A DNA stretch of 11,413 bases from the UHGV virus genome UHGV-0295468. One strand, given 5' to 3'. Positions 1 through 11,413 of this stretch are shown one piece after another. Origin of the DNA: a virus. How positions within the stretch are numbered: position 1 is the stretch's first letter; each line of letters opens with the position of its first letter. A program made the translations under genes and the position numbers. The notes under the pieces are model-generated. The model ran no database searches and was not told the DNA's origin. It saw nothing but the letters and a program-made list of their open reading frames with translations.

Positions 1-136
1 CACCTTATGACTGGAAGCCGATCAGGGTGGTTTGTCGTAAATGGTCGGCAAGCGTGGGGGCGTTGTGGGTAACCATAACGGCAGATTTTGAACAGGTCGT
101 GGCATAGGAGGCTCTGATGCAGGATATTCCACAGGA
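1..136. repeat. Left-terminal inverted-repeat arm: exact reverse complement of 287..422; carries an inverted copy of the M 3' end (plus-strand codons 3..107, stop 108..110) and of the first 6 codons of L (117..134)
   Basis: Base-by-base comparison: position i pairs with 423-i for i=1..136 with no mismatch; the match breaks at 137 vs 286. The arm runs to the window edge, so its true length may be larger. Confidence 0.95.
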
Positions 137-306
137 TGATACTGCCGCCCCTGCCAGGTAACCGGCTCACCTTTTTCGTTCTGCTCATTACAGAAAAAAT
201 AACGTTCACCACCGACCTCTGTCAGATCGATTTCCCAGAGCACCGCCTGGGCTGACTGAGTGAGGCGTGTCGTCTCATGATGTGTTTCCTGTGGAATATC
301 CTGCAT
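22..306 (-). CDS. L: Minor tail protein L, N-terminal fragment only. About 57 codons (306..137) are L-like; the rest of the 94-codon ORF (136..22) is out-of-frame read-through into the inverted-repeat arm
   Basis: Translation MQDIPQETHHETTRLTQSAQAVLWEIDLTEVGGERYFFCNEQNEKGEPVTWQGRQY closely matches the lambda gpL N-terminus as recalled. ATG at 306..304 lies 9 nt after the M stop, preceded by GAGG. Similarity stops exactly at the 136/137 repeat junction; lambda L is about 230 aa, so this copy is truncated. Confidence 0.8.
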   Translation of the reverse strand: MQDIPQETHHETTRLTQSAQAVLWEIDLTEVGGERYFFCNEQNEKGEPVTWQGRQYHPVEYPASEPPMPRPVQNLPLWLPTTPPRLPTIYDKPP

Positions 307-422
307 CAGAGCCTCCTATGCCACGACCTGTTCAAAATCTGCCGTTATGGTTACCCACAACGCCCCCACGCTTGCCGACCATTTACGACAAACCACCCTG
401 ATCGGCTTCCAGTCATAAGGTG
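287..422. repeat. Internal partner of the left inverted repeat; this copy is contiguous with the intact M gene and the L start codon
   Basis: Reverse complement of 1..136 (136/136). It lies within genuine coding context: L start ATG at 306..304, M stop TAG at 318..316, M C-terminal codons up to 422. Confidence 0.95.
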
Positions 423-645
423 GCGTCCACTGAAATGCGCGGACGCCACCGTGCCGTTCCAGAAAGGATTTTAAAGATGGGTGTTCACATTTACGAACAC
501 GTATCGTCACGCTGTAAGTCGACAACTGGTTATTCAGTCCCGCCGCACGACGCTGTTCATAACCATCGCCCAGCTTCACTGTCACCACTTTCGGCTCTGA
601 TACCACATTCATATCCGGGCGCACTTTCCAGTGAAACGTCTCCAT
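316..645 (-). CDS. M: Minor tail protein M (109 aa)
   Basis: Same length as lambda gpM with clear similarity along the protein (METFHWKV..., WTPPYDWKPIRV..., ...FEQVVA). ATG at 645..643 overlaps the H stop TAA (647..645) by one base; correct position between H and L. Confidence 0.9.
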   Translation of the reverse strand: METFHWKVRPDMNVVSEPKVVTVKLGDGYEQRRAAGLNNQLSTYSVTIRVRKCEHPSLKSFLERHGGVRAFQWTPPYDWKPIRVVCRKWSASVGALWVTITADFEQVVA

Positions 646-3600
646 TACCGATATGCTCCACTTAACCGACCACCATCACGGGCCTGCTGTTGCATAAAGT
701 CCGCTGCCGCTTTTTTCCCAAGGTCATAAACCACCTTCAGGGCAGCAGGACCTATCTGCCCGTTCGTGCCATCGTTATTGATCTCGATGTTGTACTGCGG
801 GGCAAACATCGCCATACCTGAACCACCAATATCCGCCACAACCCCCAGCTTACCGTCAGCACCACGACGCAGTGGCAGAATGGCTTCAGGTCCAGCTTCC
901 CCCATCACACCCGCGCCTTTTGCAAAAGCAAAAAACGTCGGACGGTTAACCACCGTGCCACTGTAGCGACTCAAATCAGCCGACTGATAAACACCGCCAT
1001 CAGCATTGGCTACAAAATCAAAAGGCAGCGCGGAAGCAATGCCTTTTACCGCTTTCATTAAAGCTATCTGAGCCATGATTCTGGACATATCTGACAGCAC
1101 AGAAGAGGTGAAGGATTTGAAATTGAGTTTGCCTGTAGTACAGAATGTCGCCAGCCAGTCACTCATGCTACTGAACGCAGACGTGAACAACTGTTCCACT
1201 GTCCCGGCTGTGTTATCCGCATTCTCAGTGACATTCTGGAGTGCACGCAGGACTCCGTTTTTCCAATTACCCTGAGCAATTTCAAGCCGTTGCCAGTAAC
1301 GGCGATTCTCATTCAGTTGTCGGTTCAGACTCTCCGTCAGCGCCTGCTCGGCCTTTCTGTAGTCATCCGTGTTATATGTCCCTTTCTGCTCACTATCCCG
1401 CCTCAACTGCTCCAGCTGTTGCTGGTATTTCTGGCGAAGACTCAGTTGTACCTGATATCGCTGCCGCTGCTGATCACCCATACCCACCGTGGCGATATCC
1501 AGGTCATGTTGCTGACGCTGAGCGCGCTCTTCTTCAGCCAGTTGACTGGTCAGCTGAATTGTTTTTTTCTTCAGATCGTTGAGTGCCGTCTGTTTCTGAA
1601 GCTCCTGCTGTTTTACATCCAGCAGCGTCAGTGCCTGAATCAGTTCATCTTTACGGGCCAGCACACTCTTTTCATCTGCCGTCAGTTTTTTCCCGTCCAG
1701 ATCGCTGATGCGCTGCTGCAGAGCCAGAAGCTGTTTATGCGCTTCTGTCATCTTTTCAGTGGCAATGCCTGCTGACTGTCTTGCAGCAGCAATCTGTCCT
1801 TCCACCTGTGCCTGTTGCTGACTGTACTGCAGCAATAACCGGGTGGCCTCATCATTACGGGTTTCGCGTGTTTTTTTCTTACCGGATGCCAGGGCTTTCT
1901 CGTAACGTTCATTTTCACGTTGTATCGCCGCATCCCTGACAGCCTGATCGGCGTACTGCATGGCATTAATACGCGCAATTTCACGCTGATGTCGTGCAGC
2001 TTCCGTTTCATTCATCCGGTTCAGTGCAGCATTTTCAGCATTACGGCGTTTCTGTTGCTCCTGATAATTCCGCTCTGCCTGCTCTTTTGCATCCTGCAAA
2101 TCCTTCTGGCGTTTTTTCTCCTGAAGATCGTTAAGACGCTGCTGATCGTATTCAACCTGAGAAGATGATGCCGTCCAGGGGAGTCTTTTCGCCCGCGACA
2201 CTTTCTCCTGCAAAGTGGCAATCTGCGCATCCAGCGAATCTTCACGACCAATATTCATGGCCGCATCCCAGAACTGCTTCCACCAGTCAGACAAAGTTTG
2301 CAGCGTACTGCCCAGCGCATTGAGGTTATTATCAATATCCGCAGTACGCCGACCGGTTTCCTCTGCCAGTGCAGACATGGCTATCCGTGCCGCATCACTG
2401 GACCGCCCCTGCTCTCCAAGGACGCGTATCTGCTCAAGCTGAGTGGCAGTAAGAAAATGCAGCTCATTGTCCAGAGACTTCGCGGCATTTACAGGATCAT
2501 CCTTCAGCCGCTTAAACTGATTTATGGTATCGCTGACCGACTGGCCAACCGATCGCTCCATCTGTGCGGCAGCTCTCGCCACCATACCGATATCGTTTCC
2601 ACGAAATGCACCACTCCCCACCACCTGAGCCAGCGCACCGGCTGCAGCATGTTGCGTGATACCATTCCCGGAAATAGCACGACTGAGCGTCCACAGCTGC
2701 CCGGCAGTGACTCCGGCATAATGCCCCGTCAGCGACAGCTGGCGGTTAAATTCTTCCCCCTCCTTCTGACCGTCATACCAGGCTTTACCCAGGCCATAGA
2801 CAGCCGCGGCAATACCGCCAATAACCCCGCCAAGCATCATGCCTTTCGGTGACATCAATGTGTCTATCCACCCGGCACGGTTAGCCAGCGTTATTCCGGA
2901 TCCCCTCAGCGCACCTAAATTTCCGCGGGCCAGTTCACCTATCAGAACGCCTATCTCCTGACGGGCCGCTGCACTTTTCAGCCCCAGCGAATGCGTGGCT
3001 TTTCCTGCCTGCTCCATTTTGCGGATATACACTTCTGCAGCACTGCTTACCCCCAGCTGGGCAGCCTTGGCACGAAGCAACTCAGAAGAAGAAAGATTCT
3101 GGCGGGTTGCCTGCTCTTTAAGCTGACGGATAAACGCCACTTTCTGTCGGGTAGCCTCTTCCTCAGCCTGTGTAAGAACACGGGTTTTCGCCGTAACCTC
3201 AGAAATCAGCGCCAGATAATCCTGCTGACCAATCCCGCCACTGTTTCTGGCCTGTCGGATCTGCTGCTGAATACGCTGTAATTCCTGCAGACCCGCACTG
3301 GCCTGTTTCACACTGTCAATCTGACGATAAAACGCAGCAGCCGCTTTATCCTGAGCCTCCGCCAGAGCCATGGCCTGCGCCTGTTCCTCGCGCATTTTCT
3401 GGCTCAGCGCCTCCATACGCTGGCGGGTTTTCTCCACCTCGCGGGCCATGCGTTCATGAGCCTGTGCGTTCTTCTCCACCGTCTGCGCATGGACGGATGC
3501 GGCTGTTGCAGCCGAAGACGCCGCCTGCGTTGTCTGCCGGGCGGCCTGAGTCTGACGCTCCATAAAACGCTGCATACGGGCAGAAGACCGTTCTGCATCG

Positions 3601-3701
3601 CTGGCTGCACCATTCAGAAGGTTTTTGATACGGGGGATTTCATTTTTAAACTCTGCCGCATCAATCCCCAAATCAATGACCAGGTTGGCTATCTGGTCCA
3701 T
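645..3701 (-). CDS. H: Tail tape measure protein (gpH-like), 1018 aa from the ATG at 3701
   Basis: N-terminus MDQIANLVIDLGIDAAEF and C-terminus INNDGTNGQIGPAALKVVYD...RDGGRLSGAYR match lambda gpH termini as recalled. Long Q/A/E/R-rich coiled-coil repeats and a Gly-rich hydrophobic segment are typical of tape measure proteins. ATG at 3701..3699 is preceded by GGAGGTG with 6-nt spacing; the ORF track starts 10 codons earlier at a TTG (3731), which I consider less likely. Confidence 0.92.
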   Translation of the reverse strand: MDQIANLVIDLGIDAAEFKNEIPRIKNLLNGAASDAERSSARMQRFMERQTQAARQTTQAASSAATAASVHAQTVEKNAQAHERMAREVEKTRQRMEALSQKMREEQAQAMALAEAQDKAAAAFYRQIDSVKQASAGLQELQRIQQQIRQARNSGGIGQQDYLALISEVTAKTRVLTQAEEEATRQKVAFIRQLKEQATRQNLSSSELLRAKAAQLGVSSAAEVYIRKMEQAGKATHSLGLKSAAARQEIGVLIGELARGNLGALRGSGITLANRAGWIDTLMSPKGMMLGGVIGGIAAAVYGLGKAWYDGQKEGEEFNRQLSLTGHYAGVTAGQLWTLSRAISGNGITQHAAAGALAQVVGSGAFRGNDIGMVARAAAQMERSVGQSVSDTINQFKRLKDDPVNAAKSLDNELHFLTATQLEQIRVLGEQGRSSDAARIAMSALAEETGRRTADIDNNLNALGSTLQTLSDWWKQFWDAAMNIGREDSLDAQIATLQEKVSRAKRLPWTASSSQVEYDQQRLNDLQEKKRQKDLQDAKEQAERNYQEQQKRRNAENAALNRMNETEAARHQREIARINAMQYADQAVRDAAIQRENERYEKALASGKKKTRETRNDEATRLLLQYSQQQAQVEGQIAAARQSAGIATEKMTEAHKQLLALQQRISDLDGKKLTADEKSVLARKDELIQALTLLDVKQQELQKQTALNDLKKKTIQLTSQLAEEERAQRQQHDLDIATVGMGDQQRQRYQVQLSLRQKYQQQLEQLRRDSEQKGTYNTDDYRKAEQALTESLNRQLNENRRYWQRLEIAQGNWKNGVLRALQNVTENADNTAGTVEQLFTSAFSSMSDWLATFCTTGKLNFKSFTSSVLSDMSRIMAQIALMKAVKGIASALPFDFVANADGGVYQSADLSRYSGTVVNRPTFFAFAKGAGVMGEAGPEAILPLRRGADGKLGVVADIGGSGMAMFAPQYNIEINNDGTNGQIGPAALKVVYDLGKKAAADFMQQQARDGGRLSGAYR

Positions 3702-4035
3702 AACGCACACCTCCGGAAATACCTTCCCCAAGATGCATCAGTTCTTCGTCCGTTCGCTCCGGTATCCCGTTCTCTTCCGGTAAAAGGCTGAAATCAGCCA
3801 CCGCAGCATCACTGCTGCCGGACACCATTCTCACGATCAATGCCTTCAGCGAGGCAAACTGCGCATCCATCCACACATCACTGAAGCTCTGCATCCGGAA
3901 ATAATCGCCCCACTCACCAAGCTCAGTGGCCGACATTTCCGACAGCATCCGCCGCCAGTCTGCCCGCCGGAACTCCCGGGCAAGCCGCATGACAAACTGC
4001 ATTTCCCGCGTCAGGACTTTTCCGGCGTCAGCGCC
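3673..4035 (-). CDS. T: Tail assembly protein T segment: the -1 frame ORF overlapping the 3' end of G, probably expressed only as a G-T fusion by programmed -1 frameshifting
   Basis: The -1 frame relative to G is open from 4035 (just after an in-frame stop at 4038..4036) to the stop at 3675..3673. It overlaps the G stop and sits between G and H exactly as lambda T does. A lysine-codon slip site lies one codon before the G stop. The internal ATG at 4002 has no obvious Shine-Dalgarno sequence. Confidence 0.65.
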   Translation of the reverse strand, partial: GADAGKVLTREMQFVMRLAREFRRADWRRMLSEMSATELGEWGDYFRMQSFSDVWMDAQFASLKALIVRMVSGSSDAAVADFSLLPEENGIPERTDEELMHLGEGISGGVRYGPDSQPGH

Positions 4036-4397
4036 TCATGCTCATCATCCCCGGCATTATCAATGGCCCCCATACCGCTCAGCGACAGAACCATCTCCGC
4101 CCCCGCACCCAGGGCATCATACGACCATGTTGTAATAACGGATGCGCAAAGCGTCTCTACATCCTTAGACTGATCCGCATTCCACAGTGAGCGGGAAACC
4201 AGCCAGGCATTGATATCCATCCCCATCCGCAGAAAAGCAATCTGTCGTTCAGCCTCCGGCAGTTCTCCCTCACCGGCATCAAACTTTGCCGTTCGCTGCT
4301 GAACAAACGCCAGATATTCAATTCTCTGCAACCCGGACAGCTCACTGAGCACCACGGACTGTTTTTCATAATTAAACGTGCCCTGTTTCAGAAACAT
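4011..4397 (-). CDS. G: Tail assembly chaperone G (128 aa from the ATG at 4397)
   Basis: Translation MFLKQGTFNYEKQSVVLSELSGLQRIEYLAF... resembles lambda gpG (MFLK..., TLSELSALQRIEHLA...). GGTGGAG Shine-Dalgarno 6 nt upstream of the ATG at 4397..4395. The ORF-track start at 4439 is a TTG inside the upstream hairpin and is unlikely. Confidence 0.85.
   Translation of the reverse strand: MFLKQGTFNYEKQSVVLSELSGLQRIEYLAFVQQRTAKFDAGEGELPEAERQIAFLRMGMDINAWLVSRSLWNADQSKDVETLCASVITTWSYDALGAGAEMVLSLSGMGAIDNAGDDEHEALTPEKS
4017..4023 (-). other. Candidate -1 ribosomal frameshift site GGAAAAG (minus strand) linking G to T
   Basis: G-frame codons read CCG GAA AAG TCC TGA. An AAG-to-AAA lysine tRNA slip at 4019..4017 would enter the T frame. 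The only window where both frames are open is 4035..4014. The motif differs from lambda's GGGAAAG as recalled. Confidence 0.5.
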
Positions 4398-4413
4398 CAT
4401 GTTCTCCACCTGC

Positions 4414-4437
4414 AAAAAAGCCCCGGATAACCGGGGC
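4414..4437 (-). terminator. Intrinsic-terminator-like hairpin between V and G: 7-bp GC stem (GCCCCGG/CCGGGGC), 4-nt loop, followed on the coding strand by TTTTTT
   Basis: Plus strand 4420..4437 is gccccgg-ataa-ccggggc, preceded by A6 at 4414..4419; on the minus (coding) strand this is a stem-loop followed by a U6 tract, 20 nt after the V stop and immediately before the G ribosome-binding site. Confidence 0.55.
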
Positions 4438-4457
4438 AAATGATGAGTATCGTCCTG

Positions 4458-5201
4458 TTAACCTGCGGCGCTGACAGTCACCGCAGCCACAGCCACAAAA
4501 TTCCCGTCAGCGGTCATGCCCACAATGCTGACACTGCCCTGCTTCACGCCTTTCACCGTGGCCACAAGCCCGTTCAGGGTCACCGTGGCAGTCTGTGGAT
4601 CTGACGAATGCACACTGATCGCTTTGTCACTGGCTCCGTCAGGTTTTACTGTAAAGGTCAGCGTGGTGGTTGCTCCCACTTTTACACTGGCAGATGCCGG
4701 TGCCACCGTCAGCCCGGTAACGCTCACTGTTTCAGTGCCTTCCTCTGCCAGATACGGACGCCCCACACCGCTGATTTTCACAGTGCGGGTCATCACGTCT
4801 TTTGAGGCAATGGTTTTACCCAGTGAACTCAGCCAGCCACGGAAAACATCAACAGTACCGTTGGGATATTTGATACGAAACGCGCAGACTTCACCGGAGT
4901 CGAACAACTGAACCAGTTTTTTCTGCCCGCTGTCACCCGGACGCCAGGCCAGCGTCGCCGAAGTATCACCGACTGATTTCTGCCCCTGGGTTGTCGTTTT
5001 CCAGTCTGCATCTTCATCATCGAGATAAGTATCATCTTCTGCATCAGCGGTCATTTCGCCAGGTTGCAGATCCTTCACCATCGCAAGACGCAGCCAGTCA
5101 GTGTCCGACAAAGGGTTCGCAAATGCGTCGCCGTTGCCGGTATACATCCAGAACGTCGTCCCCGCACCTTTCGTCTTTGCCAGTGGATTTGGTGTGGTCA
5201 T
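4458..5201 (-). CDS. V: Major tail protein V with C-terminal Ig-like domain (247 aa from the ATG at 5201)
   Basis: Strong similarity to lambda gpV as recalled (KGAGTTFWMYTGNGDAFANPLSD..., DTYLDDEDADW..., YPNGTVDVFRGWLSS...). Perfect AAGGAGG Shine-Dalgarno 5 nt upstream of the ATG at 5201..5199. The C-terminal ~90 aa are Thr/Val/Ser-rich and Ig-like. The ORF-track start (GTG at 5276) would overlap U. Confidence 0.92.
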   Translation of the reverse strand: MTTPNPLAKTKGAGTTFWMYTGNGDAFANPLSDTDWLRLAMVKDLQPGEMTADAEDDTYLDDEDADWKTTTQGQKSVGDTSATLAWRPGDSGQKKLVQLFDSGEVCAFRIKYPNGTVDVFRGWLSSLGKTIASKDVMTRTVKISGVGRPYLAEEGTETVSVTGLTVAPASASVKVGATTTLTFTVKPDGASDKAISVHSSDPQTATVTLNGLVATVKGVKQGSVSIVGMTADGNFVAVAAVTVSAAG

Positions 5202-5211
5202 TGCCACCTCC

Positions 5212-5613
5212 TTAATTCGTGTACGTGATCTGGTACGTGATTTCCGCCATCGCCCAGGTGGCCATCTCATTATCACGTTGATAGTTAAAACCGAGTGGGA
5301 TCAGGGTGTCGATGAGTCCGGAAAGTGCCGGTACATCATTCAGGGCCGGGAAAATGGTGCTCTCCATCCACATATCCAGCTCTGAATCCGGTGCCTGTGC
5401 CCGGATGAAGACAGCAATATGCAGAACAGCCTGCCAGTCATCTTCATCCGTCATTTTTCCGGTGTACTGAGCATCACTCAGCCACACCGCCACGGCAGGC
5501 AGTTCCTGCGCATCAACAAATGCCGGAAGCCCGTCAAAAAACGTGGCGCTGTCTCCACACTGTTCCCGAAGGCGTGCCAGTACGACCTGGCGGATTTGTG
5601 TATGTCGGTTCAT
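5212..5613 (-). CDS. U: Tail terminator protein U (133 aa from the ATG at 5613; an alternative ATG at 5625 gives 137 aa)
   Basis: Similarity to lambda gpU (ATFFDG..., PAVAV..., YTG, DSELD.WMES, ITY.ITY). The ATG at 5613..5611 overlaps the Z stop TGA (5612..5610) in an ATGA arrangement, suggesting translational coupling. Confidence 0.88.
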   Translation of the reverse strand: MNRHTQIRQVVLARLREQCGDSATFFDGLPAFVDAQELPAVAVWLSDAQYTGKMTDEDDWQAVLHIAVFIRAQAPDSELDMWMESTIFPALNDVPALSGLIDTLIPLGFNYQRDNEMATWAMAEITYQITYTN

Positions 5614-6188
5614 CGGGTCAGCCATAACCTCAGTTGTTGTTTCAGTGCATACCCCAGCTGTTTCGGCATTTCCGCAGCAATGATGCGGTCGCGGGCATCT
5701 TCAAATGCCTGTGTCAGCGGTCCGGACAGCGGGATTTTCACCACATCAATGGGGTAACGATTTTTGCCATCAATACGCCGCATCACATGCCAGCGACCAT
5801 TCGCCAGTTGCTGAATAAACGCATCCCGGAAAAGATATTTACCCACCTTCAGCACACTGCCACGGTACTGCAGTTTTCCACCACGCCGGGCCAGTCTGAC
5901 CCGGGCTGTCCCCAGCTTAATGGCGGGAAGATTGCCCCGGTTAACGCGGATCCTGGCCGTCATTTTTCCTGACGGACTGGCTTTAAACACCCGGACACGC
6001 TGACGTACCAGTTTCAGGGGGATCCCTTTCACCTGGTTATCTCCCGCAACGGTATTCCCGGCAACCTGCCGGGTGGCAACCGAGACCGCTTTCTGTGCCA
6101 CACGGTTTATCGCCCATGCGCTGGCCTGTGGCACCATACGGGTATCAAGGCTGTTCAGATTGCGGATGGCATTCTCAAGCCCCTTCAT
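5610..6188 (-). CDS. Z: Minor tail protein Z (192 aa)
   Basis: Same length as lambda gpZ with near-collinear similarity (MKGLE..., PQASAW.INRVA, QRVRVFKA, IRVNRG.LPAIKLG, NGRWHVM.R..GKNRYPIDVVKIP, LGYAL). GAGGTG Shine-Dalgarno 5 nt upstream of the ATG at 6188..6186. Confidence 0.92.
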   Translation of the reverse strand: MKGLENAIRNLNSLDTRMVPQASAWAINRVAQKAVSVATRQVAGNTVAGDNQVKGIPLKLVRQRVRVFKASPSGKMTARIRVNRGNLPAIKLGTARVRLARRGGKLQYRGSVLKVGKYLFRDAFIQQLANGRWHVMRRIDGKNRYPIDVVKIPLSGPLTQAFEDARDRIIAAEMPKQLGYALKQQLRLWLTR

Positions 6189-6199
6189 CCCACACCTCT

Positions 6200-6775
6200 T
6201 TACTCAATAAAGATCATTGGCTTACCGTTAAAGCGTTCATGCCGTGTGACCGTCCATTGTTGTCCGTCATAAACAACGCGATCCCCGCGCCGTGGGCGGT
6301 ATCCCGAAGAAAACACCACCAGAGAGACTCTGATCCCTTTTCCCGGTTGGCAGCGCGTATGGATGCGATCACGGTCAGAAAGATGGGAAAGACAGCCTCG
6401 ATTAATGATGTCGATATGGCTGTGATCCCGGGAGAAACACTGGCAGAGCTGAATGCTCTGTCCGGACCTCGGCACTTCTTCTGCACTGGTTCCGGCATCT
6501 GCCCAGACAACCCCGACCAGCGGCTCAGAGCCGCTGTTAGTCAGCTGAACTTTTCCTGACTTCAGATAAACCTTCTTACCCGTTTTCATGTCATCCGTTT
6601 TCAGCTTAGGCAGCATAAACACACCTTCGGTTATGCCGTCGCCTGTTTCTCCCTGTGGAATATCGGTCAGCGCCACCGCAAAAACATCCCCCACCTGCAC
6701 CAGATCTCCGCTGCTGATGGCTGCACTGGCAACAATCGCCACCGTTTTTCCTTCTTCTACAAAATTCTTTGCCAT
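6200..6775 (-). CDS. Continuous 191-codon ORF: N-terminal ~115 aa resemble a gpD-like head decoration protein; C-terminal ~45 aa resemble head-tail joining protein gpFII; no stop codon between them
   Basis: ATG at 6775..6773 with GGAGA Shine-Dalgarno 5 nt upstream. N-terminal part (KTVAIVASAAISSGD..., YLKSGKVQL, VVWADAGTSAEE) resembles lambda gpD (AAVGILAVAAD, FYKSGTFRY, VLWPEAASDE). The C-terminus (GKGIRVSLVVF...RRGDRVVYDGQQWTV) resembles the lambda gpFII C-terminal region (GQGVRV...SLFV...RRGDTLTIGEENFWV). Whether this is one fused protein or two genes merged by a frameshift is unresolved. Confidence 0.55.
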   Translation of the reverse strand: MAKNFVEEGKTVAIVASAAISSGDLVQVGDVFAVALTDIPQGETGDGITEGVFMLPKLKTDDMKTGKKVYLKSGKVQLTNSGSEPLVGVVWADAGTSAEEVPRSGQSIQLCQCFSRDHSHIDIINRGCLSHLSDRDRIHTRCQPGKGIRVSLVVFSSGYRPRRGDRVVYDGQQWTVTRHERFNGKPMIFIE

Positions 6776-6818
6776 AACTGTCTCCGCACAGCCCCGTTCA
6801 GGGGCTGATTTCAGGTAC

Positions 6819-6838
6819 AAAAAAAGCCCTTACGGGCC
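6819..6838 (-). terminator. Weak terminator-like hairpin after the capsid ORF: 4-5 bp GC stem with GTAA loop followed by T7 on the coding strand
   Basis: Minus strand reads ggcccgtaagggc followed by ttttttt (plus-strand A7 at 6819..6825), 24 nt downstream of the capsid stop. The stem is short, so this is tentative. A second 5-bp GC hairpin (plus 6791..6805) sits just upstream of the next ribosome-binding site. Confidence 0.35.
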
Positions 6839-6861
6839 ATCAGAGTTGTTGTCTGCGACGT

Positions 6862-8820
6862 TTACGCCGTACATTTCACCAGGCCGCGGTGATCAACTGG
6901 CGCAACACCAGCGTCAATACGCACTTTCGTTGTCACGCCATCCACACTGAAGCCCTCCATCTGATCAATATATGGCGTATCCACACCGTTGAGATAAGCC
7001 ACTTCAATCGTATCGGAGCCTTTGGACGCAGCCAGGTAGAAGGTGGTCTGGCTGTTATCATCAAGACGAGGCTCTGCAATAACGGTCGCAAAATCTTTCA
7101 CCGGGTTAATAATACCGGCGTTAATGTCAGCCCCCTTGACACTTGAGGAGCGAATGACCTGGTTAGCAACAGACTCCATCGCCGTCGGTACCAGTACGAA
7201 CGCAGGACGAATATTCAGATGACGCTCACCCTCTTTCTGAACGCGCATCAACTGGCGGGCTTTATCCAGCGATGCCACGTCCATTGCCGCGCTCTCCAGT
7301 ACGTTTGCATGTTTCGCTTTATCGAACAGACTTACATTATCTGTGGAGATTTTCGGGTTAGACGTCAGAATGGCATAAACCAGATCGGCAATAGTGGATT
7401 TCGCCGCACGGCCCAGCTTCATCGGGACATCGGTCAGCATATTCAGATCATCATTGATAATGGCCTGACGGGTGATACTGAACAGCTCGCCATAGGTCGC
7501 CAGTGCAATAGTGGCCTGTTTATCTCCGGTGGTGACGTATTTATATTCTGCCCCTTCACGCACCTGACGCAGAGCACTGAAGCCCCCCATACCCACACGA
7601 TGGGCAATTTTAAAATCAGACAACTGACCTTTCCGCGTCCACTGTTCATAGGTTTCAGGGGCATCTTCCCAGCCCTGCAGAATGGCTTTGTTCGCAACAT
7701 CCAGCAGAATATTACCGAAGTCAGACGTACTGTGTGTGAACGCCGCACCGACCATCTGCATCGGGTTATAACTGGAAACACCAATACCACGTTCAGTCAG
7801 TGACATACGGGCATATTCACGCAGGGTCATCCCGTTGTAGACATTATCACGTTCAGTTTTTTCAAACCCGGCGCGCGCCATCAGCGCCTGGCGGATCCCG
7901 TCCCCCACAAAATTACCGTTACCGGCATAAATATGAGCCGGGGTATTTTTATTGGATGGCGTGGACTCGCGCCCCATCTCGTTCAACAGCTTTTCGCGGG
8001 CCTGCTCCAGCGAACATTCAGGATCGGCAAGACACTGAGCCTGCAACGACTGATAACGCCCGCCAAACATGGCAAACAGATCATTAATACCGTTTACACG
8101 CGCTTTTTGCTCTGCCAGGACCTGCGCACGGATGCTGTTTTCATCCACCACGGGTGCTGCTGCCTGCACTGGCGTCCGGGAGGCTGCAGGTCCATCATCC
8201 TGTACGCGTGGAGCACTGTTGCGTGGCGGAGTAATCATATTTCGAATGGATTCCGGCATCTTTTTAAATTCCTCTGTACGTTTTGACTGAATACATGCCA
8301 TTGCCTTAACGGCTGGTGTCACCTGATCAGCAAATCCCTGTGCCAGACATTCGGCACCGGACATCCAGGTCTCATCCGCCAGCATGGCAGCAATTTCATC
8401 GGTGGTTTTCCCGGTTTTCTGTGCATAAGCGGGTAACAGAACCGCCTCAACTTTATCGAGCAGGTCGGCATAGGTGCGCATGTCCTCCGCATCACCGCCC
8501 GTAAAGCCAAATGGTTTATGAATCATCATGAAGGAGTTTTCCGGCATAATGACCGGGTTTCCCACCATCGCAATGACCGACGCCATTGACGCCGCCACAC
8601 CGTCGACATAAACGGTAATGGACGCACCATGTGTTTTCAGTGCATTAAAAATGGCGATGCCTTCAAAGACATCGCCACCCGGTGAATTAATATGGAGATT
8701 AATGTGGGTGATATCGCCCAGTGCATTCAGATCACTGATAAACTGCTTCGCCGTAACACCCCAGAAACCAATCTCGTCATAAATATAAATATCCGCGTCA
8801 CTCTGGTGACCTGCCTGCAT
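6862..8820 (-). CDS. Prohead protease (ClpP/S14-like), scaffold-like linker and HK97-fold major capsid region in one 652-aa ORF
   Basis: N-terminal ~200 aa have ClpP-like features (IYIYDEIG..., INSPGGDVFEGIAIFNALK, VDGVAASMASVIAM, MIHKP). The middle is a charged Ala/Gln-rich region. The C-terminal ~330 aa look like an HK97-type capsid protein (no lambda gpE similarity). ATG at 8820..8818 lies 13 nt after the portal stop. The ORF-track extension to 9081 starts at a TTG and overlaps the portal by ~250 nt. Confidence 0.78.
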   Translation of the reverse strand: MQAGHQSDADIYIYDEIGFWGVTAKQFISDLNALGDITHINLHINSPGGDVFEGIAIFNALKTHGASITVYVDGVAASMASVIAMVGNPVIMPENSFMMIHKPFGFTGGDAEDMRTYADLLDKVEAVLLPAYAQKTGKTTDEIAAMLADETWMSGAECLAQGFADQVTPAVKAMACIQSKRTEEFKKMPESIRNMITPPRNSAPRVQDDGPAASRTPVQAAAPVVDENSIRAQVLAEQKARVNGINDLFAMFGGRYQSLQAQCLADPECSLEQAREKLLNEMGRESTPSNKNTPAHIYAGNGNFVGDGIRQALMARAGFEKTERDNVYNGMTLREYARMSLTERGIGVSSYNPMQMVGAAFTHSTSDFGNILLDVANKAILQGWEDAPETYEQWTRKGQLSDFKIAHRVGMGGFSALRQVREGAEYKYVTTGDKQATIALATYGELFSITRQAIINDDLNMLTDVPMKLGRAAKSTIADLVYAILTSNPKISTDNVSLFDKAKHANVLESAAMDVASLDKARQLMRVQKEGERHLNIRPAFVLVPTAMESVANQVIRSSSVKGADINAGIINPVKDFATVIAEPRLDDNSQTTFYLAASKGSDTIEVAYLNGVDTPYIDQMEGFSVDGVTTKVRIDAGVAPVDHRGLVKCTA

Positions 8821-8833
8821 CCTGAACCAGGAA

Positions 8834-10342
8834 TTATTCTTCGGACTGGTCGTCGGTGTGCTGCGGCTCCTGTCGTTTCGTTGCGGCACTGCTGCCTCCT
8901 TTATCACTGGCCGGATCGGTATCAAATACCAGATCCAGCTTGCGGTTTTCATCAATTTCGGCCTTGCGCCGACGTTTGACATCATCTGGATTACGACCAC
9001 CTGCACGTACCCAGTCTGATTCTGTCGCCGCTCCACCACGAATCTGAATTTTCCAGGCCTCAGCCTCCTTAACAGGGTCAATCCACGGCATCACCGGTCC
9101 GGAATACACCGCGGTATACAGTGAAGAACGATCAAGATCGCGGGGTAGCCTGATAACACCGGATGCCACAGCCTGTTTCAGCCAGGCACGATACATCGGG
9201 CGGGTGACGGCACCAATAAACCAGTCCTGCAGGATCAGGTAGCCATCAGTGGATTCAACCAGCTCCTGACGCTGGGCGCTGTAAGTGCCGTTATAGTTGC
9301 GCGCTGTACTGGAAAAACTCAGACGACTGCCCGCCGCCACGGCACGCAACTGACCATTACGAAAAGTTTCAAGATTAGGATTGGGGCGATCCGACTTCAC
9401 CATTCCGATTTCTTCGCCGGGTTTCAGATCGTCGTAAATAATGCCTGGCTGAATGGTAAGCTCGCGTTCCTTATCCTTGCTGCCATTACCATCCGGTTCA
9501 TAGCTCTGCCCGTCGCCTTTCCGGATGTACATCCCCAGAGCAGCGGCGATCCTTGCTGCAGTCAGCTCAGAATCTTCATACTCTTTCAGGGCACTGAGGC
9601 GGATCAGCACACCGGACAACAAAGACGTCCCGCGCATCTGGTGCAGACGGCGAACAAATTTAAGATGCAGCATTCGCTCTGCATCCACTTCTTTGGTTTC
9701 CATCTGCCGTCCGGATACGGGACGGCTTTTATACACCAGATATTTTTCGGGACGCCCCCAGTCATCAACAAACACGCCCTGATTCAGCCTGTTGCTCTCA
9801 TCACTGGTCATGGGAATAAAGTCCGGCTCGAGCGCCTCCAGCCAGAAATGAACACCGGCAGAAGGCGTCAGGCTGTTTATGCGCCCGGAAACCATCTGGG
9901 CAAACACCTCACCATCGCGCAGCCAGGTACGCAACATCAGACGTTCCAGCATCGGACGGGTAAACTGCCCGGTGACTTCCGGACTGACAGACCATTCACT
10001 CCATCGGGTGCGTATCTCCGCTGCCAGATCACGGGCAATGGCCCCATTGCGTAATACCGGATGTGGCTCGACAATAATCCCGTTTTTCCCCACCACCCGT
10101 TCTTCCAGCTTGTCAAATACACCAATGACCAGATCGTGGTTGTTATCAAGGTAACGGGCCTGCTCACGTAACGACACGGCCCCGTACTGGCTTAACTGGT
10201 CGGCAGTTCGGTTTTCCCGCCGGGCTTTGTGTGTCCGCGTCGTTTTTACGGCCTCATAAGCCTGGATCACCGCACGGGAACGCAGCCTTGCCGCTTTCCA
10301 TCCTGGTGAAAAAACGCCAATCACATCATCAAGAATTGCCAT
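8834..10342 (-). CDS. Portal protein (502 aa from the ATG at 10342)
   Basis: Size and position (between W/terminase and the protease-capsid gene) are typical of a portal; acidic C-terminal tail. The ATG at 10342..10340 overlaps the W stop TGA (10344..10342) in an ATGA arrangement. Assignment rests on synteny and general appearance, not on a recalled alignment. Confidence 0.8.
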   Translation of the reverse strand: MAILDDVIGVFSPGWKAARLRSRAVIQAYEAVKTTRTHKARRENRTADQLSQYGAVSLREQARYLDNNHDLVIGVFDKLEERVVGKNGIIVEPHPVLRNGAIARDLAAEIRTRWSEWSVSPEVTGQFTRPMLERLMLRTWLRDGEVFAQMVSGRINSLTPSAGVHFWLEALEPDFIPMTSDESNRLNQGVFVDDWGRPEKYLVYKSRPVSGRQMETKEVDAERMLHLKFVRRLHQMRGTSLLSGVLIRLSALKEYEDSELTAARIAAALGMYIRKGDGQSYEPDGNGSKDKERELTIQPGIIYDDLKPGEEIGMVKSDRPNPNLETFRNGQLRAVAAGSRLSFSSTARNYNGTYSAQRQELVESTDGYLILQDWFIGAVTRPMYRAWLKQAVASGVIRLPRDLDRSSLYTAVYSGPVMPWIDPVKEAEAWKIQIRGGAATESDWVRAGGRNPDDVKRRRKAEIDENRKLDLVFDTDPASDKGGSSAATKRQEPQHTDDQSEE

Positions 10343-10554
10343 CAGAACCTCGCAAGCCGGTACCCGGGATGCCCCCGTCGTCGTGTAATCAGAGCCGCAA
10401 GGCGGCGCTCCCACTCCTGCCGTCCCTGCCGGATCTCAGATAAGTTTTCCATGGTCATCTGCTGACCATTAAAGGTGACGGATTTTCCGTCCAGCACCGC
10501 CATTTCAGCTTCCGTATAACGCTGAATCATGGCTTCGATATCATTCTGGTTCAT
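10342..10554 (-). CDS. W: Head-tail joining protein, gpW-like (70 aa from the ATG at 10554)
   Basis: Small protein directly after the terminase gene with a C-terminal RRRGHPGY motif resembling lambda gpW (RRRGPAGF). The ATG at 10554..10552 overlaps the terminase stop TGA (10553..10551); GGAGG lies 6 nt upstream. The track ATG at 10560 has no spacer after the Shine-Dalgarno sequence. Confidence 0.7.
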   Translation of the reverse strand: MNQNDIEAMIQRYTEAEMAVLDGKSVTFNGQQMTMENLSEIRQGRQEWERRLAALITRRRGHPGYRLARF

Positions 10555-11330
10555 AACCATCCTCCGGAAGTCAGCCAGGGGTTAACATCGTCAGTTACTG
10601 TTTTCTTCCGTTTTTGTTTTTTAACAGGCGTGGATACCGGTTCCGGTGTGGGTGACGGTTCGGTACTGTCCGGGACACACTCCAGCCAGGTTTCCCGGCT
10701 CGCCCACTCCGGTGCATCCGGCCAGCGGATCTTTTCGTATCCATGCAGAATGACCAGAGCCTCGGCATACACCATCAGGTCAAAAGCTTCGTTGGCACCG
10801 CGACCCGGCTTACTCCATTTCCCGTCACTGCTCCGCTCTTCATACGTCAGTTCGTCGTAAAACCAGCTCCCCAGCCAGTCAGGGAAATGCACATAGCCGG
10901 GACCTGGCGAGTCACGCCATAACGCGTTATTCACCCGGTCTTTCAGGGCATCCGTCTGAAGAAGCCAGAGCGGTACATCACCTGCGGCCTGCGCCCGTCG
11001 GCCCGTTCGTCCGGTGTTATCAGGGAATGTACGGGTGATCAGTTTTGCGCGCCGGATGCTGTCGCCCTTAAACAGGTAAATACGTTTACCAAGGCCATCA
11101 CGACGGCAACGACGCCAGAATTTATAGGCATTATCAGTGACCCCGTCTTCACCGCCGGAGTCCACCGCCATTGCCATCAGTCGCATTTGTTGAGAAGGAT
11201 CGGAGGCCAGCGGCCAGCTTTTATGAAAAACATCCGTCAGCAGGACATCCCAGTCTTCCGGATAGCTGGCCGGATCAATTCGCTGGCTCTCCCCGATGGC
11301 GGTGGACTCCGGCGGTGAAGACGGGGTCAC
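10551..11330 (-). CDS. A: Terminase large subunit, C-terminal fragment only (about 248 codons, 11294..10551); the codons above 11295 are read-through into the right inverted-repeat arm and the N-terminal ATPase part is absent
   Basis: Position immediately upstream of W and portal with ATGA coupling to W; globular, Trp/Asp-rich sequence typical of a terminase nuclease domain. The ORF-track start is a GTG inside the inverted-repeat arm. Assignment is by synteny and general appearance; not verified by search. Confidence 0.7.
   Translation of the reverse strand: MTPSSPPESTAIGESQRIDPASYPEDWDVLLTDVFHKSWPLASDPSQQMRLMAMAVDSGGEDGVTDNAYKFWRRCRRDGLGKRIYLFKGDSIRRAKLITRTFPDNTGRTGRRAQAAGDVPLWLLQTDALKDRVNNALWRDSPGPGYVHFPDWLGSWFYDELTYEERSSDGKWSKPGRGANEAFDLMVYAEALVILHGYEKIRWPDAPEWASRETWLECVPDSTEPSPTPEPVSTPVKKQKRKKTVTDDVNPWLTSGGWL
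11054..11171. repeat. Internal partner of the right inverted repeat, inside the terminase coding sequence
   Basis: Exact reverse complement of 11296..11413 (118/118); position i pairs with 22467-i; the match breaks at 11172 vs 11295. Confidence 0.95.
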
Positions 11331-11413
11331 TGATAATGCCTATAAATTCTGGCGTCGTTGCCGTCGTGATGGCCTTGGTAAACGTATTTACCTGTTTAAG
11401 GGCGACAGCATCC
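11296..11413. repeat. Right-terminal inverted-repeat arm: exact reverse complement of 11054..11171, running to the window edge
   Basis: Base-by-base comparison with no mismatch over 118 bp, separated from its partner by a 124-bp unique spacer (11172..11295). The arm reaches the last base of the window, so the true length is unknown. Confidence 0.95.

What the first reader, a model, noticed from the sequence alone, without database searches (positions are those of the whole stretch)
11054..11413. Matching 118-bp fold-back inverted duplication at the right end truncates the terminase gene
Positions 11296..11413 are the exact reverse complement of 11054..11171, with a 124-bp unique spacer. The terminase large-subunit frame runs from 10551 only to about 11295 before entering the inverted copy, so only the C-terminal ~248 codons are present. 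The architecture mirrors the left end: an exact arm, a short non-palindromic spacer, and a breakpoint inside a gene.
Basis: seen in the sequence. Interest (0 to 1): 0.7.

Follow-up and report, generated by a model that had tools for sequence, protein, structure and literature searches.

The report
Fold-back assembly artefact at contig end
The last 118 bases of this contig are a reverse-complement copy of sequence 124 bases further in, stuck on where the phage terminase gene should continue; it is a sequencing or assembly artefact, not biology, and the same contig holds two more like it.

Summary
Positions 11296-11413 are the exact reverse complement of 11054-11171, with a 124-nt spacer. The left end has a twin: arms 1-136 and 287-422, spacer 150.

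The window is an ordinary lambda-like E. coli prophage head and tail module on the minus strand. Positions 137-11295 match single E. coli chromosomes at 99.4-99.6%.

About 1,900 E. coli genomes and 17 phages are collinear up to exactly 11295. They then continue into the rest of a 700-aa terminase. The window keeps residues 454-700 at 100% identity.

The junction is absent from 5,426 complete E. coli genomes and from the IMG/VR, JGI metagenome and GTDB genome collections. None of 80 related contigs has a terminal fold-back.

I also found an internal 141-nt inversion (6329-6469), with 16 nt lost, that no reference shares. All four inverted junctions are blunt, with no microhomology. Each jumps 124-154 nt to the opposite strand.

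Blunt ends and a narrow distance range argue against polymerase template switching. They fit paired-end geometry: two convergent mates written head to tail, or an equivalent fold-back read kept at graph dead ends.

Verdict: not a real feature, and low interest. Trim both ends and re-invert or mask 6329-6469.

The parts
11296..11413 (.). Terminal inverted copy (the artefact). It is the reverse complement of 11054-11171, appended where the terminase gene should continue.
   Evidence: Exact reverse complement. All references diverge from base 11296 onward. This stretch matches references only on the opposite strand.
11172..11295 (.). The 124-nt 'spacer'. This is genuine terminase coding sequence, collinear with the references.
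   Evidence: It lies within the single collinear match 10400-11295 at 99.9%.
11054..11171 (.). Inner arm. This is genuine terminase sequence and the template of the terminal copy.
10551..11295 (-). C-terminal fragment of the lambda gpA-type large terminase (residues 454-700 of 700, nuclease domain), cut at the junction.
   Evidence: Pfam PF20454 GpA_nuclease, E 7.7e-47, matching only profile positions 115-294. 247/247 residues identical to the protein translated from the L001 terminase CDS (annotated WP_000934113.1), residues 454-700.
1..136 (.). Left terminal inverted copy (twin artefact). It is the reverse complement of 287-422.
   Evidence: References are collinear only from 137.
137..422 (.). 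Left spacer (137-286) plus inner arm (287-422). This is genuine sequence covering the start of the minor tail protein L gene (306 down to 137, 170 of 699 nt) and the end of the gpM-like gene.
6329..6469 (.). Internal 141-nt segment inverted relative to every reference. Three and 13 reference bases are lost at its two borders. It fuses two small head-tail genes into a false 206-aa ORF (6200-6820, minus strand).
   Evidence: Local BLAST against L084. 0 of 1,829 E. coli records are collinear across 6200-6600. 7 of 8 IMG/VR loci holding the region have the middle on the other strand and none is collinear. Translation.
137..11295 (-). Genuine content: a lambda-like prophage structural module. In order it holds the terminase C-terminus, a gpW-like gene, portal, ClpP-protease/capsid fusion, head-tail genes, tail tube, the G/T chaperones, tape measure, gpM and the gpL N-terminus.
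   Evidence: Pfam hits. 99.4-99.6% identity over the full length to single E. coli chromosomes. Annotation of strain E1.

Best explanation
The terminal 118 nt are not part of the phage genome. They are a 'hairpin' chimeric connection, in which the contig is joined to its own reverse complement. This arose during data generation or assembly and was kept because the true path had a dead end there. What is shown: the real sequence continues past 11295 into the remaining 453 codons of the terminase gene. The contig instead turns round and re-reads 11171 down to 11054 on the other strand. The same happens at the left end, and twice more internally, which produces a 141-nt inversion. What is inferred is the sub-mechanism. 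Each of the four junctions places the 3' end of a stretch on one strand directly against the 5' start of a convergent stretch on the other strand, 124-154 nt away, with no shared bases. That is the geometry of the two mates of one paired-end fragment written head to tail, as happens with unsplit or mis-oriented read pairs. The implied fragments at the two ends are 242 and 286 bp, and the terminal mates are 118 and 136 nt. A de Bruijn assembler that rescues single-read links at dead ends would then decorate coverage-limited contig ends with such arms. The confidence of 0.92 is for 'artefact, not biology'. Within that, I put about 0.55 on read-pair or software geometry, about 0.3 on physical fold-back chimeric molecules, and the rest on other or unknown handling.
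For: (1) 1,894 E. coli records and 17 phage genomes are collinear with 10400-11295, stop matching at exactly 11295, and continue with a different sequence that encodes an intact 700-aa terminase followed by a small-subunit gene. (2) An 80-mer centred on the junction is spanned by 0 of 1,954 matching E. coli records. The 40-mer junction has 0 exact hits in IMG/VR, JGI metagenome contigs and GTDB genome contigs. (3) The left end has the same architecture, and references are collinear only from 137. (4) A third anomaly of the same scale, the internal inversion at 6329-6469, is absent from all 1,829 E. coli records and all 8 IMG/VR loci that hold the region. (5) All four junctions are inverted, blunt (0 nt microhomology by both tests) and span 150, 144, 154 and 124 nt. 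(6) All three anomalies destroy essential, otherwise 99-100% conserved genes. (7) None of 80 related IMG/VR loci, which by my hand count include roughly 40 true contig ends, has a terminal fold-back, so this is not a property of this phage's DNA. [quoted passage not shown] (9) The longest repeat in the contig is 136 nt and the inverted segment is 141 nt. Both fit a single unitig built with k between 137 and 141; 141 is MEGAHIT's default maximum (my own knowledge). MEGAHIT rescues coverage-1 k-mers as 'mercy k-mers' (PMC8021871).
Against: No reads, assembler name or sample record could be obtained. The three contig-specific chimeric proteins are not on record. The step from 'artefact' to 'which artefact' is therefore inference from geometry alone. 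The two terminal arms differ in length (118 and 136 nt), so they are not simply k-1 overhangs; the mate model needs variable (trimmed) read lengths. Zero microhomology at four random blunt joins has a probability of only about 0.1 ((9/16)^4). A genuine private rearrangement would produce the same contig shape.
Confidence: 0.92

Rival explanations
1. This is the same class of artefact but with a physical origin. A polymerase jumped to the opposite strand a short way back during MDA, PCR, reverse transcription or end repair. That made real fold-back molecules, which were sequenced and assembled faithfully.
For: 85% of MDA chimeras are inverted and mostly intramolecular and proximal (PMC1855051). 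The rnaSPAdes authors link graph hairpins to such polymerase jumps. All four junctions here are inverted and proximal.
Against: In MDA, 93.5% of inverted chimeras less than 10 kb apart show at least 2 bp of complementarity at the junction. Here 0 of 4 junctions have even 1 nt, which gives about 0.065^4 under that model. MDA jump distances spread out up to 10 kb and fall off with distance. Here they sit in a 30-nt band (124-154), which points to a fixed length such as fragment minus read length.
Confidence: 0.3
2. This is a real in vivo rearrangement in one bacterial or phage lineage: fold-back inverted duplications from hairpin-capped breaks, snap-back replication or tandem-inversion duplication. 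The assembler stopped at them because the arm repeats the contig itself.
For: A true inverted duplication would give the same contig-end signature. Absence from databases cannot exclude a private event.
Against: Snap-back priming needs a short inverted repeat or microhomology at the turn, and none is present at any of the four junctions. Three independent, similarly sized events within 11 kb, each inactivating an essential gene that is otherwise 99-100% conserved (terminase, tail protein L, the head-tail genes), is implausible for a sequence this well conserved. It occurs in 0 of 5,426 complete E. coli genomes.
Confidence: 0.03
3. These are natural genome termini: hairpin telomeres of a linear plasmid-prophage (N15-like), terminal inverted repeats, or an invertible segment flanked by inverted repeats.
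For: The only support is the superficial shape: an inverted repeat at each end of a linear sequence.
Against: The arms are internal coding sequence of the terminase and tail genes. The two ends share nothing with each other, so they are not terminal inverted repeats. There is a 124-150 nt non-palindromic loop where a telomere would have a perfect palindrome. The closest relatives (cdtI, mEp460, Ayreon, Tritos and about 1,900 prophages) carry the same DNA uninterrupted, with a small terminase gene upstream. The second arm is absent from all references, so nothing is there to recombine.
Confidence: 0.01

Closest known systems
'Double-strand hairpin' chimeric connections in de Bruijn graph assemblies (Bushmanova et al. 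2019, rnaSPAdes, PMC6736328)
   Same: An erroneous edge joins a correct edge to its own reverse complement, giving partly palindromic contigs. It occurs at both contig ends and is absent from the true genome.
   Different: It was described for RNA-seq and single-cell MDA data, whereas here the content is prophage DNA. The arm lengths (118 and 136 nt) and the blunt, fixed-distance junctions point to read-pair geometry rather than polymerase jumps.
MDA inverted chimeras (Lasken & Stockwell 2007, PMC1855051)
   Same: Inverted orientation, intramolecular, with the two segments close together.
   Different: Those junctions nearly always show 2-21 nt of complementarity and a broad spread of distances. 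Here microhomology is 0 nt at 4 of 4 junctions and distances are 124-154 nt.
Paired-end mates stored or read as one concatenated spot (unsplit SRA reads; my own knowledge, no paper found that documents the effect on assembly)
   Same: It predicts exactly the junction type seen: the 3' end of one mate abutting the 5' start of its convergent mate, a blunt join, a distance equal to insert minus read length, and decoration of dead-end contig termini.
   Different: This could not be verified, because the run, read layout and assembler are unknown.
In vivo fold-back inversions or tandem inversion duplications
   Same: An arm, a short spacer and an inverted arm, with the breakpoint inside a gene.
   Different: Those depend on short inverted repeats or microhomology at the turn and persist in genomes. 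Neither is seen here.
Lambda gpA-type large terminase of phages cdtI, mEp460, Ayreon, Tritos and related E. coli prophages
   Same: The gene fragment is a 100% identical copy of residues 454-700 (nuclease domain).
   Different: Only the C-terminal 35% is present, because the contig turns back on itself.

Membership tests
Assembly hairpin (self reverse-complement) chimeric connection | The contig is joined to the reverse complement of its own nearby sequence | tested here: met
   Exact 118-nt and 136-nt terminal arms.
Assembly hairpin (self reverse-complement) chimeric connection | The junction is absent from independent assemblies of the same sequence, which continue differently | tested here: met
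   1,894 E. coli records and 17 phages continue into an intact terminase. The junction has 0 hits in four collections.
Assembly hairpin (self reverse-complement) chimeric connection | The junction is supported only by chimeric or mis-joined reads, with a dead end or low depth on the true path | not testable with these tools
   No reads are available, and the source contig is not on record.
Read-pair mates joined head to tail | Every junction joins two convergent stretches on opposite strands (right-right or left-left only), as in a forward-reverse oriented pair | tested here: met
   Four of four junctions: LL 150, RR 144, LL 154, RR 124.
Read-pair mates joined head to tail | Blunt join with no dependence on sequence homology | tested here: met
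   0 nt microhomology at all four junctions.
Read-pair mates joined head to tail | Jump distance equals insert size minus read length and is narrowly distributed | tested here: inconclusive
   The distances of 124-154 nt are narrow, and the implied inserts of 242 and 286 bp are plausible. The library parameters are unknown.
MDA or template-switch inverted chimera | Complementarity of 2-21 nt at the junction (93.5% of proximal inverted chimeras, PMC1855051) | tested here: not met
   0 nt at 4 of 4 junctions (criterion).
MDA or template-switch inverted chimera | Inverted, intramolecular, with segments less than 10 kb apart | tested here: met
Hairpin-telomere linear prophage (N15-like) | The terminus is a perfect palindrome at a dedicated tel site, not inside genes | tested here: not met
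   A 124-nt non-palindromic spacer, and arms made of terminase coding sequence.
In vivo fold-back inversion or tandem inversion duplication | A short inverted repeat or microhomology at the turn-round point | tested here: not met
Lambda gpA-type large terminase (the gene that is cut) | GpA nuclease domain and full-length collinearity with characterised relatives | tested here: met
   PF20454, E 7.7e-47, matching profile positions 115-294 only. 247/247 identity to residues 454-700. The N-terminal ATPase part is missing from the window.

The most novel reading that the evidence does not exclude
The fold-backs are real. Under this reading an 11-kb linear snap-back DNA derived from a lambdoid prophage, with fold-back ends and an internal inversion, exists in the sample, for example as a product of aberrant replication or packaging. 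It would have been made by a homology-independent strand-joining activity with a preferred reach of about 120-155 nt.
Probability: 0.02. Interest if true: 0.5.

Novelty: not a real feature. Interest (0 to 1): 0.06.

Why it matters
It has no biological importance. Its value is for quality control. The contig carries three artefacts that create false gene truncations, a false fused ORF (6200-6820) and false terminal structures. A naive pipeline could score these as inverted terminal repeats, hairpin ends or novel proteins. The signature has four parts: a contig end that is the exact reverse complement of sequence 100-150 nt further in, blunt junctions, a narrow range of jump distances, and all self-repeats shorter than the assembler's k. 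This signature is easy to screen for. If it is common in the source assembly, it would indicate that paired reads were mishandled.

Tried and rejected
**Tracing the source contig.** I looked up three proteins that only this contig can encode (22-306, 10551-11330 and 6200-6775, all on the minus strand). None is on record.

**Exact scans for the junction.** Scans of IMG/VR, JGI metagenomes and GTDB genomes found nothing. That supports uniqueness but gives no provenance.

**Base rate of the artefact.** I looked for terminal fold-backs in 80 related IMG/VR loci and found none. I therefore could not show that it is common in public data.

**Homology-driven turn-round.** I searched for microhomology or short inverted repeats that could drive snap-back priming at the terminal and internal junctions. 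None was found.

**Arm length as k-1.** I considered reading the arms as k-1 overhangs. 118 would fit k=119, but 136 fits no common k, and the two ends differ, so I rejected a simple overhang.

**Assemblers with k=31.** I rejected a unitig-based assembler with k=31 as the source, because a unitig cannot hold a 136-nt self-repeat.

**Other biological readings.** I rejected an invertible segment, terminal inverted repeats and hairpin telomeres (see rival explanations).

**Literature.** A search for a paper documenting the effect of unsplit SRA spots on assembly found nothing usable.

**RNA genes.** Rfam and tRNA scans of the window were empty.

**Simulation.** I did not simulate the assembler, because a faithful re-implementation of multi-k heuristics was out of reach and the result would depend on my own choices.

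Full report
**Observation.** The repeat finder reports arms 11054-11171 and 11296-11413, 118 nt, 100% complementary, 124 nt apart. It also reports a twin at the other end: arms 1-136 and 287-422, 136 nt, 150 nt apart. A direct string comparison confirms that both are exact. Neither can be extended inward, because 11172 is T opposite 11295 G, and 137 is T opposite 286 T. The next longest inverted repeat in the window is 27 nt at 78%. By my arithmetic, an exact 118-nt inverted repeat is expected by chance about 6e-64 times in 11.4 kb.

**What the window is.** All long ORFs lie on the minus strand and form a lambda-type head and tail module. Pfam assigns the following:
- the GpA nuclease domain of the large terminase (10551-11330, matching only profile positions 115-294 of 294)
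- a lambda-family portal
- a ClpP-protease/major-capsid fusion
- a tape measure protein
- minor tail protein M
- the first 31 profile positions of minor tail protein L

Positions 137-11295 match single E. coli chromosomes over their whole length at 99.4-99.6%. The annotation of strain E1 gives the expected gene order, from tail tip protein J through the large terminase to a DUF1441 protein in the small-terminase position. Phages cdtI, mEp460, Ayreon, Tritos and others carry the same DNA at 99% identity or more.

**What lies at the junction.** With window 10400-11413 as query, 1,894 E. coli records and all 17 matching phage records align from query base 1 to base 896, which is window 11295, and no further. 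In strain MS7163 and phage cdtI the sequence continues TCGCTGTCACC..., while the window has ATGGCGGTGGAC.... In those references the terminase gene would occupy window 10551-12653. It is followed by a small-subunit or DUF1441 gene. The window retains 745 nt of it. These encode residues 454-700 of 700 at 247/247 identity. The left end behaves the same way. References are collinear from 137. The tail protein L gene, whose start is at 306, is cut after 170 of 699 nt.

**Is the junction seen anywhere else?** An 80-mer centred on 11295|11296 matches 1,954 E. coli records by one half or the other, but none spans it. The 40-mer across the junction has no exact match in IMG/VR, in the JGI metagenome contigs or in one genome per GTDB species. 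Eighty IMG/VR loci encoding the same portal include, by my hand count, roughly 40 true contig ends. None of them shows a terminal fold-back. The fold-back is therefore specific to this one assembly and is not a property of this phage's DNA.

**A third anomaly.** Aligning the whole window to strain E1 showed that window 6329-6469 (141 nt) is the reverse complement of the reference, with 2 mismatches. The flanks are collinear, and 3 and 13 reference bases are missing at the two borders. The lost bases include the start codon of one small head-tail gene (annotation). None of 1,829 E. coli records is collinear across 6200-6600. Of 8 IMG/VR loci holding the region, 7 have the middle on the other strand and none is collinear. 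The inversion merges two genes (91 and 107 codons in the reference) into a false 206-aa ORF.

**Anatomy of the four junctions.** An inversion is one right-right plus one left-left junction. A terminal fold-back is one of either kind. In reference coordinates the four junctions are left-left 150 nt, right-right 144 nt, left-left 154 nt and right-right 124 nt. None has a base that could belong to either side. All four are therefore the same kind of event: a blunt jump of 124-154 nt to the opposite strand.

**Mechanism.** The topology is a described assembler artefact. [quoted passage not shown] It relates them to polymerase jumps in MDA (PMC6736328).

Two features argue against a polymerase origin here. 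In MDA, 93.5% of inverted chimeras less than 10 kb apart have at least 2 bp of complementarity at the junction, and jump distances spread out to 10 kb (PMC1855051). Here four of four junctions have none, and the distances lie within 30 nt of each other.

A fixed distance and blunt joins point to the geometry of the library. Each junction puts the 3' end of a stretch on one strand against the 5' start of a convergent stretch on the other strand. That is how the two mates of one fragment look when written head to tail. Read this way, the right end is a 118-nt mate (11054-11171) followed by its partner starting at 11295, from a 242-bp fragment. The left end is a 136-nt mate (422 down to 287) followed by its partner starting at 137, from a 286-bp fragment.

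Such a link survives only where the true path has a dead end. This explains why both termini carry one. It also explains why an assembler that rescues single-read links between dead ends would keep it; MEGAHIT's mercy k-mers are one example (PMC8021871).

The longest self-repeat in the contig is 136 nt and the inverted block is 141 nt. Both fit a single unitig at k between 137 and 141, and 141 is MEGAHIT's default maximum (my own knowledge). They exclude a k=31 unitig assembler.

These last steps are inference. Without the reads I cannot separate mis-handled mates from real fold-back molecules.

**Rivals.**
- A genuine in vivo fold-back or tandem inversion duplication would need a short inverted repeat at the turn. 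There is none. It would also require three similar events in 11 kb, each destroying an essential gene that is otherwise 99-100% conserved.
- Hairpin telomeres, terminal inverted repeats and invertible segments fail on anatomy. The arms are internal coding sequence, the two ends are unrelated to each other, the loop is a 124-nt non-palindromic stretch, and the second arm does not exist in any relative.

**Verdict.** The feature is not real. The terminal 118 nt, and likewise positions 1-136, should be trimmed. Positions 6329-6469 should be re-inverted or masked. ORFs 22-306, 6200-6820 and 10551-11330 should not be treated as proteins. Interest is low. The only use is as a quality-control signature for the source assembly.

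Noticed in passing
window 6329-6469 (context 6200-6820): A 141-nt internal segment is inverted relative to every reference, with 3 and 13 nt lost at its borders. It creates a false 206-aa fusion ORF. Its junctions are blunt, like the terminal ones, and it is probably the same artefact process.
   Followed up: yes
window 1-422: The left-end twin of the finding. A 136-nt terminal inverted copy with a 150-nt spacer cuts the minor tail protein L gene after 170 of 699 nt. References are collinear only from 137.
   Followed up: yes
window 137-6328 versus 6470-11295: Identity to E. coli strain E1 is 99.94% on the tail side (4 mismatches in 6.2 kb) and 99.13% on the head side (42 mismatches in 4.8 kb). 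This is probably ordinary lambdoid mosaicism, though the change coincides with the internal inversion.
   Followed up: no
window 6862-8889 (-): The prohead protease and the major capsid protein are encoded as a single ClpP-like/capsid fusion gene, as annotated in the reference prophages. It overlaps the portal gene by about 56 nt.
   Followed up: no
window 3673-4397 (-): A tail assembly chaperone pair, G (4011-4397) and T (3673-4002), sits upstream of the tape measure gene. The lambda-type programmed -1 frameshift expected here was not examined.
   Followed up: no
L001 (E. coli MS7163), locus 1-990: In this reference genome the protease/capsid fusion gene is annotated as frameshifted (a pseudogene), so that prophage copy may be defective.
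   Followed up: no
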